From the sequence record KJ190158: 64,000 nucleotides of DNA; one strand, given 5' to 3'. A program made the translations under genes and the position numbers. The notes beneath the pieces were generated by a model, which was given only the letters and a program-made list of their open reading frames with translations, was not told where the DNA came from and made no database searches. Origin of the DNA: Escherichia phage FFH2. Shown here one piece after another: positions 28,825-43,200 of this stretch; position 1 is the stretch's first letter; the number at the start of each line of letters is the position of its first letter.

Positions 28825-29037
28825 ATGATCAACACACATGCATCTGAAGAGACATCCGAAGGAGTTACCATCTGTCCCTTGGCTGAGCCAGTGAAAGAGG
28901 AAAACTTCGATTCTGAAGATTATCCATCTCCGTCCCAGGTAGATCCTGAGGCTGATGACCTAACGTGGGAAGACATCGTAGATATCTGGTTCTCTATTAT
29001 GCCTGAGCACGAAGAGTTCAGGGGTGGTAGACTATGA
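28825..29037 (+). CDS. hypothetical acidic protein
   Basis: ORF. Preceded by a 29-aa hydrophobic peptide ORF (28738-28827) and a TGGACA-17-TAGTAT promoter-like site (28677-28705). Confidence 0.4.
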   Translation: MINTHASEETSEGVTICPLAEPVKEENFDSEDYPSPSQVDPEADDLTWEDIVDIWFSIMPEHEEFRGGRL

Positions 29038-29156
29038 AGCACCGAGCCCACACAGGTTCCTCATACTAAAGCATGGCCTGAAGAGGCAAACGTGCATAAT
29101 TCCTGCGCATTTGGACGTATAATCCTGTTCACACTCTCATTTCCAGAGGAGATTTT

Positions 29157-29372
29157 ATGAAGATAGAAATATTTGGTGGAGCTGACAACACTCGTGGCCT
29201 GATTTACCTTGAATTTGATGAATCATACCTGCCAGAGGTGTTAAATATAGACTCTGTTGCTGAGGCTTTGGGAGTAAACCCTAAAGAACTCCACTCTTGT
29301 GCTGAGATCGATGGTTGGGAAGAGACCATGAACATTGATTTCAGTGAAGTAGAGGATGAACCGCTGGACTGA
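29157..29372 (+). CDS. small acidic protein (MKIEIFGG..., family-like)
   Basis: gaggagatttt RBS. Last + strand gene before the ORF-free region. Confidence 0.4.
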   Translation: MKIEIFGGADNTRGLIYLEFDESYLPEVLNIDSVAEALGVNPKELHSCAEIDGWEETMNIDFSEVEDEPLD

Positions 29373-30823
29373 CACACAATTAGCTGCCCGGCTAAAGTGC
29401 TGGAAGCACCTATAACACATCTTTCAACTAAATTTCCTACCACCACAATCACTTACCTCCCACACATGACTGTTTGCTTGTTTAGTGAGCAGTCATGCCT
29501 TGACATTCTTGCCTATCCTGATAAAATTAAGTTCTTCTCTTTTCTTTTACCGAGTAATTCGGGTTTTCTGTTCTCTTCGGTTTGAAGGGGTATAGAGATA
29601 CACCTGAGTGAACAGGGTGAACAACCGAACATTTGGCTATGGCATTAGCATGGCGAAGCGGACGGGTGACGAAAGAGGGGCCGGAGGACACCAGTCACTG
29701 CCATATGATATATGGGTGATAACCTGAAGAGTCTGAATAAGTGTTTAAGTACCAGTCAGAGGAAAAGGTGAATGGTAGCCGAAGGGGGAGGGGGGTTTCT
29801 TGTATCTTTAATTTGTATATTATGTATACACTTGTAAACCAATCTCATCTGAATTTGTTTACCACACAAAGTGGATAGGGACAAATATTACCTATTAAAC
29901 TTGAATTATTTATAGAAATACCACAACACCACTTAAGTCTTTGATTTTACACACAAATCCTACAGATATTCACCCTCCATATTTAACATACCTGTAACAT
30001 ATTCCATACCCTACCTGACCGATCAATTCACCCAACTACATCCCCATATTTTCCCTGTCTGTACTACCCCTGCCCCGCCGGGAGTCCCGTCATATCTGGC
30101 TTTCCAGCAAATATCACACCCACAAATATCATTGCCTGAAGAGGGTTTCATCCCATAATACATGCCTTACCTGAAGAGCGCTTCATACACCACGTAAATT
30201 TTTTAATTGACCCCCTCCCCGCCGCCGGAGAGGTTGGCTTTTCCCACACAGACCTGAAGAGTCAGCCAGAAATATCTGAACAGGTCCAGCTATGCCACGA
30301 TTTTGTGCTTGTCCTACAGGAGTGCCTCCCTGTCAGGAGCCGGTAGCGACTGGAGTGCTGCCAGGCGGACGAAATGGGAATCATTCTCATTCTTATAACA
30401 ATTCTCAAATATCGAGGCAGTGAGGCAAATTAATAGGTGAGGCCGTTCACACAATGGCACAACATTTGCAACCTATCTTGTGGGAGTGAATGAGAATACC
30501 TATCATTGTGAGAATAGTTATCATTACGGGCAATTTAACATAATACCCATTATGCGCACCACTGGCGATCCATACAGGGATTGATAACATGGGTTACTGT
30601 TTACACACATAACAATTATATTTCTTACTATTTGTGTGGGATATAGTTAGCAGCCGATAGATTAGATATTGACCTGTAGACTTCCAACCGTCCAGACGTC
30701 TAAACGCCCACACAACAAGGGTTATACATACACAACTGAATGTAAACAGGGCCGCAAAAATGCTACCATACAAGCTTGTAAATTTTTCATGCAGCACTTG
30801 ACAAAGAGGAGGAAAACTTGTCT

Positions 30824-30894
30824 GACACTTTAGACACAATAGTGACATAATATGACATAATGGTGACACTGAACATAATTGACATGCCTGACTG
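30824..30894. repeat. helically phased array of TGACA pentamers (about 8 copies at ~10-11 bp spacing)
   Basis: TGACA/AGACA at 30824, 30833, 30844, 30854, 30865, 30881, 30890 (plus 30800) in an ORF-free region. Confidence 0.6.
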
Positions 30895-30928
30895 TTTACA
30901 TAGCTAACTATTCATACAGAAATGATAA

Positions 30929-31161
30929 GCCATGCCATTCGTTTGCATGATAATAATTAACTTGTTTACAATAGATGACATAATATAAAAGCAGGGCAAC
31001 TATTAGAAGATCTATAGTTGCCTTGCTTGTTATGTCATGATTAACTAAATACAAGGCAACTATGATCTGATTAATAGTTTGCAGACAAACTATCACGGGG
31101 GTGATGGTTACTGCTTTTATATTATGTCGCGACTCCGTCGCGCCATGCCATTCGTTTGCAT
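30929..31161. repeat. nested repeat structure: 20-bp direct repeats flanking 18-bp inverted repeats that enclose caactat inverted iterons
   Basis: gccatgccattcgtttgcat occurs at 30929-48 and 31142-61; gacataatataaaagcag at 30977-94 pairs with ctgcttttatattatgtc at 31111-28; ggcaactat..atagttgcc at 30995-31022. Confidence 0.6.
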
Positions 31162-31774
31162 AGTTGCCTTATTGTTACAGATAAAATAATTGTATTGTTA
31201 ATTATTTCTTATCTTTCTCTTAGTCATCTAATGATTCCAGTCAGTATAGTAATGTACAGTAAACATTAGACGACTAAAGATTTCTCTGTTTATTATAACT
31301 TACCGTGACAATTTCAGGCTGTTTACGAAAAATGTTGACACCTGGGCCGATTTATGTTATGCAGTTTACACGAATAATTATTTTATGCAGGTATTGACTA
31401 TTCCGTTATTCTATGGTTGGAATAAATACTTAGCAGACTATAGAATGGTGAGCGTACGTAAATTCTGAGATCTGGCGGCTATAGTTATACTCGATTTTTC
31501 ACGTAGAACACGCTTTTGTTAGTGTGTAAGTGTATGACTTATAAAGATTTTTAGTTGTTGACAAGATATTGAAGATGTGCATCAGGTTAAATTTTGTGCA
31601 ATAGCGGCATTACGTGCAATTTTGAGAGAGAAAACGGGTAAAAATGGCCTTGCTATCACACAATGAAAAATTATGCAATAGTTATTTTACATGTATGTTT
31701 GTACAGTGTGTGGGATTGATGGCTAGTCAATTATTCCACTTGCCAGGCTGGGCCGTTTGTGGTAGGAGAAATAC

Positions 31775-31808
31775 AGACAAAAAGAAAGGGGCCTTTTAAA
31801 GCCCCTGA
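31775..31808 (-). terminator. rho-independent terminator ending the leftward early cluster
   Basis: On the - strand: aggggctttaaaaggcccct followed by ttctttttgtc. Confidence 0.65.
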
Positions 31809-31824
31809 TAGTTTAGTTAAGAAA

Positions 31825-32244
31825 TTATAATGATTCGTATATTTCATAGATTCGATTTGCCAGGTCGTTACGGTAGCGGAATTTTTCCTCACGTTTGATC
31901 ATCAGATCTTTAAAGCCATATTCTTTAAGCACTTCATTAACTTTATGGCGGCATACCTTCATATTATCCTGTGCGTCACCAATAAACCTGTTGCTATGGT
32001 GCATGGCTTTAATTTCTTCTTCCAGGACCAGAGCAACTATGCGGACCGGATCAAGCTGATAGGCGGTAACATCCATGCGGCATTGTAAACGACTTTTTAC
32101 GTCTGCCACCGGATATACTGCAACCTCTTCCCCGTCAACATTGACAATAATTAGTTTACCATCGATTTCGAATCCTTTCGCCGCCGGACCGTGACAAAAA
32201 GCGTTATCAAAGCTATATGCCGGATTATTAGATTTAATGTTCAT
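31825..32244 (-). CDS. hypothetical protein (139 aa)
   Basis: ORF; own promoter at 32294-32322 (TTGACA-17-TATATT, - strand). Confidence 0.5.
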   Translation of the reverse strand: MNIKSNNPAYSFDNAFCHGPAAKGFEIDGKLIIVNVDGEEVAVYPVADVKSRLQCRMDVTAYQLDPVRIVALVLEEEIKAMHHSNRFIGDAQDNMKVCRHKVNEVLKEYGFKDLMIKREEKFRYRNDLANRIYEIYESL

Positions 32245-32293
32245 GGTGTTTTTACCTCTTAGTTAATTTTCTTACAACTTCCCTTCAAAAAAG

Positions 32294-32322
32294 AATATAG
32301 CAAAACTGCCGATCCTTGTCAA
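32294..32322 (-). promoter_or_regulatory. sigma70 promoter (TTGACA-17-TATATT)
   Basis: The -35 lies inside the palindrome atccttgtcaaccaaggat. Confidence 0.55.
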
Positions 32323-32390
32323 CCAAGGATAGCATAATTTTTATGTGATCAAGGGGCTTTATTGCCCCCCTGATCGTGCAACTTGTTGTA

Positions 32391-32654
32391 TTATTTGTTG
32401 CTCATCCAGTTTTCCCAAGCTGCCTGATAATCTGCCTCACTGCGGCGGATCTCTTCTTGTTCTTCAAGCCGGATCTCTTCTTCCAGGTACCCCAGGATAT
32501 CGGCTTTTTTGGTCTGGCGTAACATCCAATCATCTTTTTTACGAGTAAAGATCTTATAAGCTTTCTCGCAAACCTCTTTTTTGCTACCTTTTTGGACTTC
32601 AAGAACACGATAAGCCATATATTGAACTAGTTTGAGCTGGTCAAGACGTTTCAT
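32391..32654 (-). CDS. hypothetical basic protein (87 aa)
   Basis: ORF; upstream hairpin gggccttttggccc. Confidence 0.45.
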   Translation of the reverse strand: MKRLDQLKLVQYMAYRVLEVQKGSKKEVCEKAYKIFTRKKDDWMLRQTKKADILGYLEEEIRLEEQEEIRRSEADYQAAWENWMSNK

Positions 32655-41953: not shown

Positions 41954-42374
41954 GATTTTTTATCCTCTCTGTTAATTAGTGTGGTGTTGTTCACCTTGCG
42001 AGGATAAGAATAACAAGAACTGTCCGAGCTGTCAACTATTAGTTAAAATTATTTTTTGGGCGGAATTCTCCAGCCGCCGCCCCTGCCAGGTTAACCATCA
42101 TTTTTTCGTACTCTTCTTTATATTCCAACGCTCCCGCTATAGCCTTTTCAACCAGGGCGATAGCCTCAGCGTCATTAATAGCTACATTTTCCAGGGGGAT
42201 CATATTACCTTTCATTTTTGTACCTCCTCTTCAATTGTTACCTATCCTATAGCATAGGCCCACCAGGTTTACAAGCCTTCATTCTCTCCTACCTGGTCAG
42301 TTAGGTCCTGCCAGGCTGGCCCCACTAGGTTGCAGCGGTTAGTGCATCAGGTTAGAAAAATTTTTTGAAAAGTG

Positions 42375-42403
42375 TTGACAGCGGCCCCGCCAGGTGGCAC
42401 AAT
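42375..42403 (+). promoter_or_regulatory. promoter-like site (TTGACA-17-CACAAT), module copy B
   Basis: Consensus -35 with a weak -10. Followed by structured element B (42421-42456) and Fur-box-like palindrome 42475-42496. Confidence 0.35.
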
Positions 42404-42518
42404 ATACCTATCGAAAGGACGGCAGGCACCGGTGACGGGGGAGACAACCACCGGGGATGGGCGCTGCATAAAATGAGAACGGTTATCATTATCATTTAAA
42501 AATTTATGCAAAAAATCC

Positions 42519-42546
42519 TTGCTTTCTTTGTCCTGTGTGATACTAT
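42519..42546 (+). promoter_or_regulatory. promoter-like site (TTGCTT-16-TACTAT), module copy C
   Basis: Followed by element C (42571-42595) and Fur-box-like palindrome gagaATGATTATCATTc (42611-42627). Confidence 0.4.
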
Positions 42547-42739
42547 AATAACAAGCCGGGGCAACAGGGGCCGGGAGACAATCACCGGGCCTGCCCGTTA
42601 TTCTGCAAACGAGAATGATTATCATTCAAAATTCTAAATGAGAACTCCTCGCATTTAATAAATTTAATTAGCACGCTAATTACACTCCGTAACAATTTAC
42701 TATAAAATAGTATCCACTAAAATATTCCCATATAGAAAT

Positions 42740-43200
42740 TTTAAAAATCCATTTCTGAAAACGAAAAATCGATTTCGTCCCTAAAAATTTCAGGCCTAGA
42801 TCCGGAACGATTTCCAGAAAATCCGATTCAGAAAACGAAAAACAGATCGAGTACTGAGAAATTTATCGAGAAAAATTTTCAGAAAATCCAAGCCCTGAAA
42901 TGAAAAGTAGATCGAGTACCTGGAAAGCTGCACCGCAACTTCAAGATAGTGGTTAGATTGTTACCATAGAAGGTCAAGGGTAAGTGGAGGAAGTTCTAGT
43001 AGAGGGAGGTTAGCATGTGTGGGAAATCTATAATGGTGGCCTGGAATATAGTGCAAACGATAGGATGAGTTATTCAGCTTGTCGCGCCTACTCTGAAAAA
43101 TCCATTTTAGTTTTCGATCCATTTTCTGATTTTCTAAGAATTTTAAAATATCCGGCCCGGTGAAATATCAAAAGGAGGAAATCCATTTTAGAAATCCCCC
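42740..43200. repeat. iteron-like direct repeats (gaaaacgaaaaa; agatcgagtac; aaatccatttt)
   Basis: gaaaacgaaaaa at 42757 and 42832; agatcgagtac at 42844 and 42909; aaatccatttt three times. ORF-free. Confidence 0.5.

What the first reader, a model, noticed from the sequence alone, without database searches (positions are those of the whole stretch)
29400..31800. 2.4-kb ORF-free convergent junction packed with ordered repeats: candidate origin / packaging or partition-like cis locus
No ORF of 60 aa or more occurs on either strand. The segment contains four cctgaagag boxes (see separate finding), a phased TGACA array (30824-30894), and 20-bp direct repeats gccatgccattcgtttgcat (30929, 31142) bracketing 18-bp inverted repeats (30977-94 / 31111-28). 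The inverted repeats in turn bracket caactat inverted iterons (30995-31022, 31055-31083). GAGAAT..TATCATT boxes (30379-30527) and a long AT-rich stretch (31160-31760) are also present. The plus-strand and minus-strand gene clusters converge here. This density of hierarchical symmetry is typical of replication origins, terminase recognition sites or centromere-like sequences, and not of simple terminators.
Basis: seen in the sequence. Interest (0 to 1): 0.6.

Follow-up and report, generated by a model that had tools for sequence, protein, structure and literature searches.

The report
Phage genome ends and terminal repeat
This gene-free 2.4-kb stretch is where the linear DNA of an rV5-like E. 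coli phage begins and ends: a 458-bp repeat present at both ends, flanked by fast-changing short repeats and conserved signal motifs, with a probable small RNA gene beside it. This settles what the published "non-coding box" is, but it is a known kind of structure.

Summary
The window comes from an rV5-like Vequintavirus. The segment is the "non-coding" box of the rV5 paper, between ORF163 and ORF164.

Three mechanical ORFs of 62-91 aa also exist, but they do not behave like genes.

The unifying feature is a 458-bp direct terminal repeat (DTR) at 30364-30821. Three independently deposited relatives (HdK5, Gotham, YN3) carry exact 458/459-bp repeats at both record ends that map to these coordinates. 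Other records start or end at one of the two boundaries. Korf et al. 2019 report a 458-bp terminal redundancy for this genus. KPP-1, in a sister genus, has a read-mapped 514-bp DTR with the same end sequences.

The two hypervariable patches of the locus lie just outside the two DTR boundaries. An AAATATC motif sits 44-45 nt inside the left end in three genera. The palindromic GGCAACTAT module is absent from FV3, so it is dispensable.

On the left side, a conserved promoter drives a probable structured RNA of about 280 nt, followed by a Rho-site-like C-rich tract.

Best reading: a T7-type concatemer junction and packaging-processing locus. An origin here is untested, and a partition site is unsupported.

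The parts
29157..29372 (+). Last gene of the rightward cluster (rV5 ORF163 homologue, phrog_12108); left border of the locus
29500..29527 (+). Near-consensus sigma-70 promoter: TTGACA, 16-nt spacer, TAAAAT, with an extended -10 TG. It is kept as a promoter (TTGCAA ... TGaTATAAT) in a clade only 74-79% identical
29534..29812 (+). Candidate structured non-coding RNA of about 280 nt. The CU-rich 5' end pairs with the G-rich 3' end. The block is 96-99.7% identical in 117 records. It has no Rfam match
29723..29731 (+). CCTGAAGAG box 1, inside the candidate RNA
29880..30130 (+). C-rich, G-poor tract, the most extreme in the 64-kb window (C/G up to 7). Its plus strand hardly folds. Rho-utilisation-like (inferred)
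30109..30276 (+). Left-flank motif cluster: AAATATC at 30109, 30124 and 30270 (-254, -239 and -93 from the left cut), interleaved with CCTGAAGAG boxes at 30135, 30170 and 30253
30296..30350 (.). Hypervariable patch abutting the left DTR boundary on the outside. It holds 1-3 CWGGAGYGC-like units, or a 50-nt hairpin insert in some relatives (identity 0.37, gaps 0.46)
30364..30821 (.). Direct terminal repeat (DTR, 458 bp), present at both ends of virion DNA and once in this junction-style representation
   Evidence: PMC6563267
30401..30413 (+). ATTCTCAAATATC, unique in the window. It lies at DTR offset 38, as in Mt1B1_P17 (39) and L005 (38). Its AAATATC core lies at +44/45 in KPP-1 as well
30491..30525 (+). 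Two tandem (T)GAGAATnnnTATCATT boxes inside the DTR. The same box occurs in the DTRs of Mt1B1_P17 and KPP-1, and also at window 42475 and 42611
30797..30821 (+). Conserved right-end sequence CTTGACAAAGAGGAGGAAAACTTGT, ending at the cut. It resembles the read-mapped right end of KPP-1 (z = 4.5)
30822..30928 (+). Hypervariable arrays abutting the right DTR boundary on the outside. First TGACAYAAT units (about 10-11 nt period, 4-8 copies among relatives), then CTGTT(T/C)AC(A/G) iterons (15-16 nt period, about 2 copies here and 10 or more in rV5 and JES2013)
30929..31161 (.). Palindromic cassette bracketed by 20-nt direct repeats (30929-48, 31142-61). It contains 18-nt inverted repeats, GGCAACTAT palindromes and a hairpin at 31088-31109. 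It folds as one long hairpin or cruciform. It is deleted in FV3, leaving one direct-repeat copy
31162..31786 (.). Conserved AT-rich non-coding block (34% GC, 86-98% identity). From 31445 it is conserved even in the diverged clade. Function unassigned; possible origin or early-promoter region
31787..31806 (-). Intrinsic terminator of the leftward cluster (8-bp stem followed by TTCTTTTT)
31825..32244 (-). Last gene of the leftward cluster (rV5 ORF164 homologue, phrog_12277); right border. It is absent in HdK5 and FV3

Best explanation
The segment is the genome-end (concatemer-junction) region of a Vequintavirus.

Virion DNA is linear with fixed ends and carries a 458-bp direct terminal repeat, window 30364-30821. 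The window shows the junction form with one repeat copy: right-end unique DNA (29373-30363), then the DTR, then left-end unique DNA (30822-31824).

Inferred mechanism, by analogy with T7-type packaging:
1. After replication into concatemers, terminase recognises signals in and around the repeat.
2. It cuts at A30363|G30364 and T30821|C30822.
3. The repeat is duplicated by repair synthesis, so each packaged genome carries a copy at both ends.

Candidate recognition elements:
- The position-locked AAATATC / ATTCYCAAATATC motif, 44 nt inside the left end, with same-strand copies 90-255 nt upstream interleaved with CCTGAAGAG boxes.
- GTGCT just outside the left cut.
- The GAGAAT..TATCATT boxes.
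- The conserved right-end sequence TTGACAAAGAGGAGGAAAACTTGT.

The short-repeat arrays just outside each boundary expand and contract quickly. They are positional analogues of the short-repeat arrays next to the T7 terminal repeat.

The locus also carries at least one unrelated passenger: a promoter-driven structured RNA of about 280 nt (29534-29812). This is followed by a C-rich, Rho-site-like tract that would stop rightward transcription before the repeat. The direct-repeat-bracketed palindromic cassette (30929-31161) is non-essential.

What is shown: the position of the repeat in relatives, the conservation pattern, the motifs, and the dispensability of the cassette. What is inferred: that this particular phage has the same ends, the roles of the motifs, the cutting mechanism, and the RNA and Rho functions.
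For: 1. Identity of the locus: the segment is 92-95% identical to about 100 Vequintavirus genomes and is the 'non-coding' box of rV5.

2. The terminal repeat in relatives: HdK5, Gotham and YN3 have exact 459/459/458-nt repeats at both record ends, mapping to window 30364-30821/2. Gotham annotates them as repeat_region. Korf et al. report 'short terminal redundancies of 458 bp' (PMC6563267).

3. Other records break at the same points. bov10K2, bov11CS3 and bov25_3 start at 30364. Pr121LW starts at 30822 in reverse orientation. CM1 has an internal junction exactly at GGCGGACG.

4. Related taxa. KPP-1 (Mydovirus) has a two-fold coverage step and a PhageTerm-called 514-bp DTR of T7 type (PMC9862379). 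Its ends share GRCGGAC at +1, GTGCT upstream, AAATATC at +44 and a similar right end (z = 4.5, 3 of 2000 shuffles). Mt1B1_P17 (Phapecoctavirus) has an exact 328-bp DTR in the homologous gap, with ATTCCCAAATATC at offset 39 and the GAGAAT box. Stephanstirmvirinae genomes 'terminate with direct terminal repeats' (PMC12695924).

5. Conservation pattern. In a 13-genome alignment the only hypervariable patches are 30300-30340 and 30822-30980, immediately outside the two boundaries. The rest is 86-100% identical.

6. The diverged relative L005 retains a block that starts exactly at 30363.

7. AAATATC clustering in the window has P of about 2e-4.

8. RNA gene: the promoter is conserved across clades. 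The fold has 50 pairs, 12 of them compensatory, with 99% of cells paired against 50-57% for slid controls.

9. The C/G extreme at 29880-30080.

10. The FV3 deletion of the cassette.
Against: - No sequencing reads of this phage were available, so its own termini are inferred from relatives that are 90-95% identical.
- Two papers using PhageTerm call Vequintavirus genomes circularly permuted or headful. The rV5 paper also assumed permutation.
- YN3 and the re-oriented bov records could have copied an earlier record's start point, so the truly independent end determinations may be as few as three labs (Korf, Gotham, KPP-1), plus assembly breaks.
- No experiment links any motif to terminase.
- The GAGAAT box also occurs at 42475 and 42611, far from the ends. 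This argues that it is a general regulatory site rather than a packaging signal.
- Left-end similarity to KPP-1 and Mt1B1_P17 is not significant as a global alignment (z = 1.1 and 2.1). Only the positional motifs are shared.
- The RNA covariation rests on two clades, CU/G-rich helices, and a structure derived from the same alignment.
Confidence: 0.78

Rival explanations
1. Replication origin. The iteron arrays (CTGTTYACR, GGCAACTAT), the long palindrome and the AT-rich block 31162-31786 form an initiator-binding and DNA-unwinding region. This could coexist with the terminus function.
For: Direct and inverted repeats lie next to a 625-bp block of 34% GC. The palindrome is strong (z = -8.3). The cumulative GC skew peaks here, and the rV5 paper saw a skew change here. 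T7 is known to have secondary origins near its ends (own knowledge).
Against: - The GGCAACTAT/inverted-repeat module is deleted in viable phage FV3.
- CTGTTYACR copy number varies from about 2 to more than 10, and this window has the fewest.
- DnaA boxes are not enriched: 7 found, 8.4 expected, and only one in the locus.
- No initiator-like gene is nearby.
- The skew change coincides with the switch in transcription direction, as the rV5 authors noted.
- A cumulative skew maximum is the bacterial signature of a terminus, not an origin.
Confidence: 0.2
2. Headful pac site of a circularly permuted genome. Terminase makes one initiating cut here and then fills heads; there are no fixed ends.
For: PhageTerm-based statements of 'circular permutated' or 'headful (PAC)' for Vequintaviruses, and the rV5 paper's assumption of permutation.
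Against: - Exact repeats of identical length and position in records from independent labs.
- The explicit 458-bp terminal redundancy.
- The two-fold coverage step and T7-type call in KPP-1.
- Conserved sequences at both boundaries across genera.
- A headful phage would not give a defined right end.
- The bov records were later re-deposited starting at the DTR left end.
Confidence: 0.07
3. Mainly a non-coding RNA and regulatory island. The conserved DNA encodes small RNAs and operator-controlled promoters (for example GGCAACTAT palindromes acting as operators over the promoter-like site at 30957). The terminal repeat merely happens to lie among them.
For: Conserved promoter and covarying RNA of about 280 nt. 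A promoter-like site, TTAACT-16-TGaCATAAT, lies just upstream of the first GGCAACTAT palindrome. A transcriptional-regulator gene is 1.7 kb away. A second locus at 42.3-42.8 kb has promoters, hairpins and the same GAGAAT box.
Against: - Apart from 29400-29680 and the symmetric palindrome, the conserved DNA shows no strand-specific folding signal.
- There are no Rfam matches.
- This does not explain why the hypervariable patches and the position-locked motifs track the DTR boundaries.
- It is compatible with the best explanation rather than a replacement for it.
Confidence: 0.3
4. Anti-defence decoy repeats. The variable-copy arrays are transcribed mimics of a host RNA, like the pseudo-ToxI repeats of the rV5-like phage PhiTE, and expand under selection.
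For: There is a precedent in this phage group for expandable non-coding repeats (PMC3475682). Copy number here varies strongly between isolates.
Against: - Unit lengths are 11 and 15-16 nt, not the 36 nt of ToxI-type antitoxins.
- The arrays abut the DTR boundaries in every relative.
- No promoter is consistently placed to transcribe them, and promoter-like spacing is not conserved in HdK5.
Confidence: 0.04
5. Partition (centromere-like) site.
For: Only the presence of phased short repeats.
Against: There are no ParA/ParB or other partition genes in the flanks. This is a strictly lytic phage group with no plasmid-prophage state (PMC3606486). The repeats are explained by their relation to the DNA ends.
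Confidence: 0.01

Closest known systems
T7-type short direct terminal repeat and concatemer junction (T7/T3: 160-230-bp terminal repeat flanked by short-repeat arrays SRL and SRR; Dunn & Studier 1983, recalled from own knowledge)
   Same: An exact short repeat sits at both virion ends and once per junction. The ends are fixed, sequence-defined cut sites. Arrays of short imperfect repeats lie immediately internal to each repeat copy. A promoter lies on the right-end side reading toward the junction. PhageTerm classes the sister-genus phage KPP-1 as T7-type.
   Different: This is a 137-kb myovirus using host RNA polymerase, not a 40-kb podovirus with its own polymerase. The repeat is longer (458 bp). 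The motifs (AAATATC, GAGAAT..TATCATT, TGACAYAAT, CTGTTYACR) are unrelated in sequence. There is no evidence for a polymerase pause site like T7 CJ. The terminase relationship was not tested.
Vequintavirus/Vequintavirinae terminal redundancy as already reported (HdK5/EdH4 458 bp, PMC6563267; Gotham repeat_region; KPP-1 514 bp, PMC9862379) and Stephanstirmvirinae DTRs (PMC12695924)
   Same: Same coordinates and length as in HdK5, Gotham and YN3. Same end signatures as KPP-1.
   Different: Those reports give only the length. They do not link the repeat to the rV5 'non-coding box'. They also do not describe the flanking hypervariable arrays, the position-locked motifs, the dispensable palindrome or the RNA gene.
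Phage P1 pac site / lambda cosB (clusters of short terminase-binding repeats flanking the cut; own knowledge)
   Same: Several same-strand copies of a 7-9-nt motif lie on both sides of a defined cleavage point (AAATATC at -254, -239, -93 and +44; TGACA at -24, +2, +22, +32, +43 and +59 around the right cut).
   Different: P1 packages by headful and lambda has cohesive ends, so neither generates a direct terminal repeat. Binding by a small terminase subunit is not shown here.
Phage T5 injection-stop-signal region (large repeat- and palindrome-rich non-coding region near a genome end; own knowledge)
   Same: It is the largest non-coding region of the genome. It is close to a DNA end, rich in direct and inverted repeats, and conserved within the group.
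   Different: The T5 element lies inside a 10-kb terminal repeat and is tied to two-step DNA transfer, which is not known for rV5-like phages. There is no sequence similarity, and this cannot be tested here.
phi29 pRNA (structured RNA encoded next to the genome end and used by the packaging motor; own knowledge)
   Same: A promoter-driven structured RNA gene lies within about 550-830 nt of a genome end.
   Different: There is no sequence or Rfam similarity. rV5-like phages use a terminase, not a protein-primed pRNA motor. The resemblance is one of location only.

Membership tests
Short direct terminal repeat (T7-type) genome terminus | The same exact sequence is present at both ends of the linear virion DNA | tested here: met
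   Met in close relatives: exact 459/459/458-nt repeats at both record ends of HdK5, Gotham and YN3, mapping to window 30364-30821/2, plus 458 bp stated in PMC6563267. For this phage itself it is inferred by homology (the DTR is 86-98% conserved).
Short direct terminal repeat (T7-type) genome terminus | Fixed, non-permuted ends: read-start pile-ups and a two-fold coverage step over the repeat | not testable with these tools
   No reads were available. Literature support comes from KPP-1, with two-fold coverage over 514 bp and a PhageTerm T7-type call. Contrary PhageTerm calls are in PMC8407724 and PMC13211470.
Short direct terminal repeat (T7-type) genome terminus | Sequence-specific cut sites conserved among relatives | tested here: met
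   The left end is GRCGGAC preceded by GTGCT in the window, HdK5 and KPP-1, with GTGCT also in Mt1B1_P17. The right end, TTGACAARGAG..TTGT, is similar in KPP-1 (z = 4.5). AAATATC lies at +44/45 in 4 of 4 phages.
Short direct terminal repeat (T7-type) genome terminus | Terminase large subunit belonging to a DTR-type clade | not tested
   I did not look for a terminase gene in this window, and no TerL phylogeny was made.
Iteron-type replication origin | A stable array of initiator-binding direct repeats next to an AT-rich unwinding element | tested here: inconclusive
   Repeats and a 34% GC block exist. However, copy number varies from 2 to more than 10, and one repeat module is deleted in FV3.
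Iteron-type replication origin | An initiator gene in cis, or host DnaA boxes | tested here: not met
   The flanking proteins have no Pfam domains and belong to PHROGs of unknown function. There are 7 DnaA boxes against 8.4 expected.
Iteron-type replication origin | Replication initiates here (marker frequency, 2D gels) | not testable with these tools
   This needs an experiment.
Headful pac site | Circular permutation with no defined second end | tested here: not met
   Both ends are defined and conserved in independent records and in the read-mapped KPP-1.
Plasmid/prophage partition centromere (parS) | Adjacent partition ATPase and centromere-binding protein genes | tested here: not met
   None of the 10 flanking ORFs has such a domain.
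Known RNA families (Rfam 15) | A covariance-model match at or near the gathering score | tested here: not met
   No match at gathering thresholds in the whole window. The only match at E up to 5 in 29000-32000 is the terminator hairpin, to suhB/mmgR, at E = 0.13.
Type III antitoxin-like repeats (ToxI / pseudo-ToxI of PhiTE) | Tandem repeats of about 34-40 nt, transcribed | tested here: not met
   The tandem-repeat periods are 11, 15-16 and 18 nt.
Mobile miniature element (MITE-like) for the 30929-31161 cassette | Multiple copies in other genomes, with terminal inverted repeats directly abutting the duplicated target | tested here: not met
   There is no match in 5,426 E. coli genomes, and only one 'plasmid' hit, which is itself a phage genome. 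The inverted repeats lie 28 and 13 nt away from the direct repeats.

The most novel reading that the evidence does not exclude
Two things together would be new.

(a) The position-locked AAATATC/ATTCYCAAATATC motif, the upstream AAATATC-CCTGAAGAG pairs and the boundary arrays form a previously undescribed terminase-recognition architecture. It would be shared by large myoviruses of two subfamilies (Vequintavirinae and Stephanstirmvirinae).

(b) The ultra-conserved RNA of about 280 nt, encoded 550 nt from the right end, is a new phage RNA class. It may have a role in end processing or packaging, or in host takeover.
Probability: 0.25. Interest if true: 0.55.

Novelty: new member of a known kind. 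Interest (0 to 1): 0.4.

Why it matters
Vequintaviruses are among the most commonly isolated E. coli phages and are used in therapy cocktails. Even so, about 100 deposited genomes leave this 2.5-kb box unannotated, and published accounts disagree on whether the genomes are circularly permuted or have fixed ends.

Placing the terminal repeat inside the box gives four practical gains:
- A natural, biologically meaningful start coordinate for genome records.
- An explanation for why assemblies break or duplicate here.
- Concrete, mutable candidate packaging signals for engineering, such as packaging of cosmid-like vectors or control of transduction.
- A candidate new phage RNA gene.

It is not a new principle, because T7-type terminal repeats are well known.

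Tried and rejected
- Rfam at gathering and permissive thresholds found nothing beyond a terminator hairpin. There are no tRNA or tmRNA genes.
- DnaA boxes and Chi sites are not enriched and are not placed near the ends.
- The three internal ORFs of at least 60 aa, and six smaller ones, were rejected as genes on frame conservation, codon-position substitution pattern and PHROG search.
- Partition or initiator genes in the flanks: none.
- The palindromic cassette as a mobile element: no copies in E. coli genomes or plasmids.
- Type III antitoxin-like repeats: the unit lengths are wrong.
- TGACA arrays as conserved sigma-70 promoters: the -35/-10 spacing seen in this window is not kept in HdK5.
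- An IMG/VR scan with the 16-mer ACAATTCYCAAATATC gave 95 scattered hits, evidently chance.
- blastn between the Vequintavirus and Phapecoctavirus non-coding DNA found no similarity. Only short positional motifs are shared.
- 241Ecol014PP's record ends turned out to be a 99-nt assembly overlap, not termini, so record ends alone are not evidence.
- The Fur-box resemblance of the GAGAAT..TATCATT box (14 of 17 to the consensus as I recall it) was not pursued.
- No record in the phage collection matches this phage's junction above about 95%.
Full report
**What the window is.** The 2.4-kb segment is 92-95% identical to about 100 Vequintavirus (rV5-like) genomes. It corresponds to rV5 104014-106617, between ORF163 and ORF164. 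In the rV5 genome paper this stretch is drawn as a grey box labelled "non-coding". The authors found no bidirectional terminator there and noted a GC/AT-skew change at 104425-105475 (PMC3606486). No deposited record assigns it a function. A few annotate short repeat_regions or spurious small CDSs.

**Check of the observation.**
- CCTGAAGAG occurs 9 times in the window against 0.67 expected. Four copies are in-frame Pro-Glu-Glu codons inside genes. The meaningful cluster is the five copies at 29077-30261.
- TGACAY is not enriched window-wide (70 against 80 expected), but five same-strand copies fall within 63 bp.
- All four exact GGCAACTAT copies in 64 kb lie at 30995-31168.
- The "no ORF of 60 aa or more" statement is wrong once GTG/TTG starts are allowed: there are ORFs of 62, 91 and 62 aa.
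- None of these ORFs shows the third-codon-position substitution excess of the flanking genes (ORF163 10/6/52, ORF164 15/19/127). Most are frameshifted or stopped in relatives, and none has a PHROG match. The DNA is therefore non-protein-coding.
- The gene clusters do converge here, and the GC skew changes sign.

**The key finding: a direct terminal repeat in the middle of the box.** A tblastn search with the flanking ORF164 protein showed that many records begin or end 0.9-2 kb from that gene, which is inside the box.
- Mapping the record ends showed that YN3 and bov11CS3 start at window 30364. HdK5, bov10K2 and bov25_3 start at the same nucleotide.
- I confirmed exact repeats at both record ends of HdK5 (459 nt), YN3 (458 nt) and Gotham (459 nt, annotated repeat_region). 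All map to window 30364-30821/2.
- Pr121LW starts, in reverse orientation, at 30822.
- CM1 contains a tandem copy of the DTR plus 66 nt, whose junction is exactly at GGCGGACG, the left end.
- Not every record end is informative. 241Ecol014PP's ends are a 99-nt assembly overlap, and isim, ECP2303 and others start at arbitrary points.

**Support from other genera.**
- KPP-1 (Mydovirus, same subfamily) has a two-fold coverage step over 514 bp and a PhageTerm call of a 514-bp DTR with T7-type packaging (PMC9862379).
- Its read-defined ends resemble those inferred here. The left end is GACGGAC against GGCGGAC, and both are preceded by GTGCT. The right end is CTTGACAAGGAGAGAGAATTGTGTT against CTTGACAAAGAGGAGGAAAACTTGT (z = 4.5, 3 of 2000 shuffles).
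- Mt1B1_P17 (Phapecoctavirus, Stephanstirmvirinae) has an exact 328-bp DTR in the homologous gap next to the ORF164 homologue. That subfamily is reported to "terminate with direct terminal repeats" (PMC12695924).
- There is no blastn similarity between the non-coding DNAs of the two subfamilies. Even so, ATTCYCAAATATC lies at DTR offset 38, 39 and 38 in the window, Mt1B1_P17 and the diverged relative L005, and occurs once in the 64-kb window.
- Its AAATATC core lies at +44/+45 from the left cut in all four phages, including KPP-1. Further same-strand copies lie 84-266 nt upstream. In the window, 4 of the 14 plus-strand copies fall within 300 nt (P about 2e-4).
- A GAATGAGAATAnnTAT(C/T)ATT box also occurs inside the DTRs of the window, Mt1B1_P17 and KPP-1, but not in L005.

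**Conservation anatomy.**
- In a 13-genome alignment the box is 86-100% identical, often more conserved than ORF163. The exceptions are two hypervariable patches.
- These are 30300-30340 (identity 0.37) and 30822-30980 (0.52-0.76, with large insertions). They lie immediately outside the left and right DTR boundaries.
- The left patch holds 1-3 CWGGAGYGC-like units, or a 50-nt hairpin insert.
- The right patch holds 4-8 TGACAYAAT units (period about 11). These are followed by CTGTT(T/C)AC(A/G) units of period 15-16, with about 2 copies here and 10 or more in rV5 and JES2013.
- ESCO5 and Mt1B1_P17 likewise diverge sharply just after their DTR.
- L005 retains four blocks: 29500-29731, 30046-30151, 30363-30421 (starting at the DTR left end) and 31445 onward.

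The 20-nt direct repeats bracket a module that folds into one long hairpin or cruciform (dG -50 kcal/mol, z = -8.3). The signal is symmetric on both strands, so it is a DNA palindrome rather than a strand-specific RNA.
- FV3 has exactly one direct-repeat copy and nothing between, so the module is not essential.
- A135 carries an insertion at the apical loop, which preserves the palindrome.
- The module is found only in Vequintavirus genomes.
- This argues against the module being the origin or the pac site.

**The left-hand (right-end) side.**
- A near-consensus extended -10 promoter at 29500-29527 is retained as a promoter in a clade only 74-79% identical. There it reads TTGCAA ... TGaTATAAT, with a different spacer.
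- The downstream block is 96-99.7% identical in 117 records. Only its plus strand folds better than shuffles (z = -2.0 against -0.4).
- A two-clade consensus fold has 50 pairs, 12 of them with compensatory double changes. The CU-rich 5' end pairs with the G-rich 3' end near 29783-29812.
- Controls: 99% of cells paired against 50-57% when partners are slid, 12 against 0-4 compensatory pairs, and a covariation score of 0.42 against 0.10-0.18.
- Caveats: there are only two clades, the helices are low-complexity, and the structure was derived from the same alignment.
- I regard an RNA of about 280 nt (29534-29812, plus strand) as probable, at about 0.55. It has no Rfam relative.
- Downstream, 29880-30080 is the most C-rich, G-poor tract of the whole window (C/G up to 7), and its plus strand hardly folds. 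This is the expected signature of a Rho-utilisation site. It would account for the missing intrinsic terminator of the rightward operon. This step is inference.

**Mechanism proposed.** The window shows the concatemer-junction form. By analogy with T7-type phages, terminase recognises signals in and around the single repeat copy and cuts at 30363|30364 and 30821|30822, and the repeat is duplicated by synthesis. The position-locked AAATATC family, interleaved with CCTGAAGAG on the left, and the conserved end sequences are the best candidate recognition and ruler elements. The boundary arrays are positional analogues of T7's SRL and SRR arrays (own knowledge). The GAGAAT..TATCATT box is less likely to be specific to packaging, because two copies occur at 42475 and 42611 in another ORF-poor locus.

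**Rivals.**
- An origin may coexist in 30822-31786. It has no positive support beyond repeats and AT-richness, and part of it is dispensable.
- Headful packaging is claimed in two PhageTerm-based papers. It is contradicted by defined, conserved ends on both sides.
- Partition, mobile-element and ToxI-like readings fail their defining features.

**Verdict.** The locus is the genome terminus with a T7-type 458-bp terminal repeat. That repeat has already been reported in one sentence for this genus, but it had never been connected to the "non-coding box" or dissected. This is a new member of a known kind. Interest is moderate, and comes mainly from the cross-subfamily end motifs and the candidate RNA gene.

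Noticed in passing
window 42260-42800: A second ORF-poor stretch inside the leftward gene cluster. It holds two tandem plus-strand units, each made of a sigma-70-like promoter, a GC-rich hairpin region and a GAGAA(T/C)nnnTATCATT box (42475, 42611). These are possible small RNA genes or a shared operator. By my recollection of the consensus, the box resembles an E. coli Fur box (14 of 17).
   Followed up: partly
L005 8716-9486 (+), equivalent to between window 29731 and 30046: The diverged relative (IMGVR_UViG_3300045988_159287) carries a 256-aa HNH homing endonuclease (phrog_99, E = 1.8e-46) inserted into the non-coding box.
   Followed up: partly
L023 (Shigella phage CM1, MK962749.1), about locus 1700-2700: The record contains a tandem duplication of the whole DTR plus the first 66 nt of the right-flank array. 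The junction is exactly at the left genome end, GGCGGACG. It is either a real end-joining variant or an assembly artefact caused by the terminal repeat.
   Followed up: partly
L025 (phage A135, MG065690.1), within the homologue of window 30949-31050: Two short GC-rich hairpin insertions (for example GGTGACCTTCGGTCACC). One sits before the left inverted repeat and one at the apical loop of the palindromic cassette.
   Followed up: no
L019 (HdK5) and L026 (FV3), homologues of window 31825-32244: The ORF164 homologue is absent from HdK5 and FV3, where the alignments jump from about 31808 to 32351. The gene bordering the terminus region is therefore dispensable.
   Followed up: no
CP057073.1 (PLSDB 'plasmid', 137,565 bp): A record filed as a non-mobilizable E. 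coli plasmid from cattle faeces matches the phage-specific cassette at 91% and has the size of a Vequintavirus genome. It is probably a phage genome deposited as a plasmid.
   Followed up: no
Records MG0656xx ('Campylobacter phage', UNVERIFIED): About 18 records named Campylobacter phage are 93-95% identical to E. coli Vequintaviruses across this locus. Their host attribution looks doubtful.
   Followed up: no
window 32391-32654 (-): The 87-aa protein is annotated 'DNA translocase FtsK' in phages navn and naswa. It has no Pfam match and only a PHROG of unknown function, so the name seems unsupported.
   Followed up: partly
window 30817-30849 and KPP-1 DTR right end: A strong Shine-Dalgarno-like AGGAGG (AAGGAG in KPP-1) lies 5-6 nt before a TTG that opens a 10-codon mini-ORF spanning the right cut site. 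It is probably coincidental to the purine-rich end motif.
   Followed up: no
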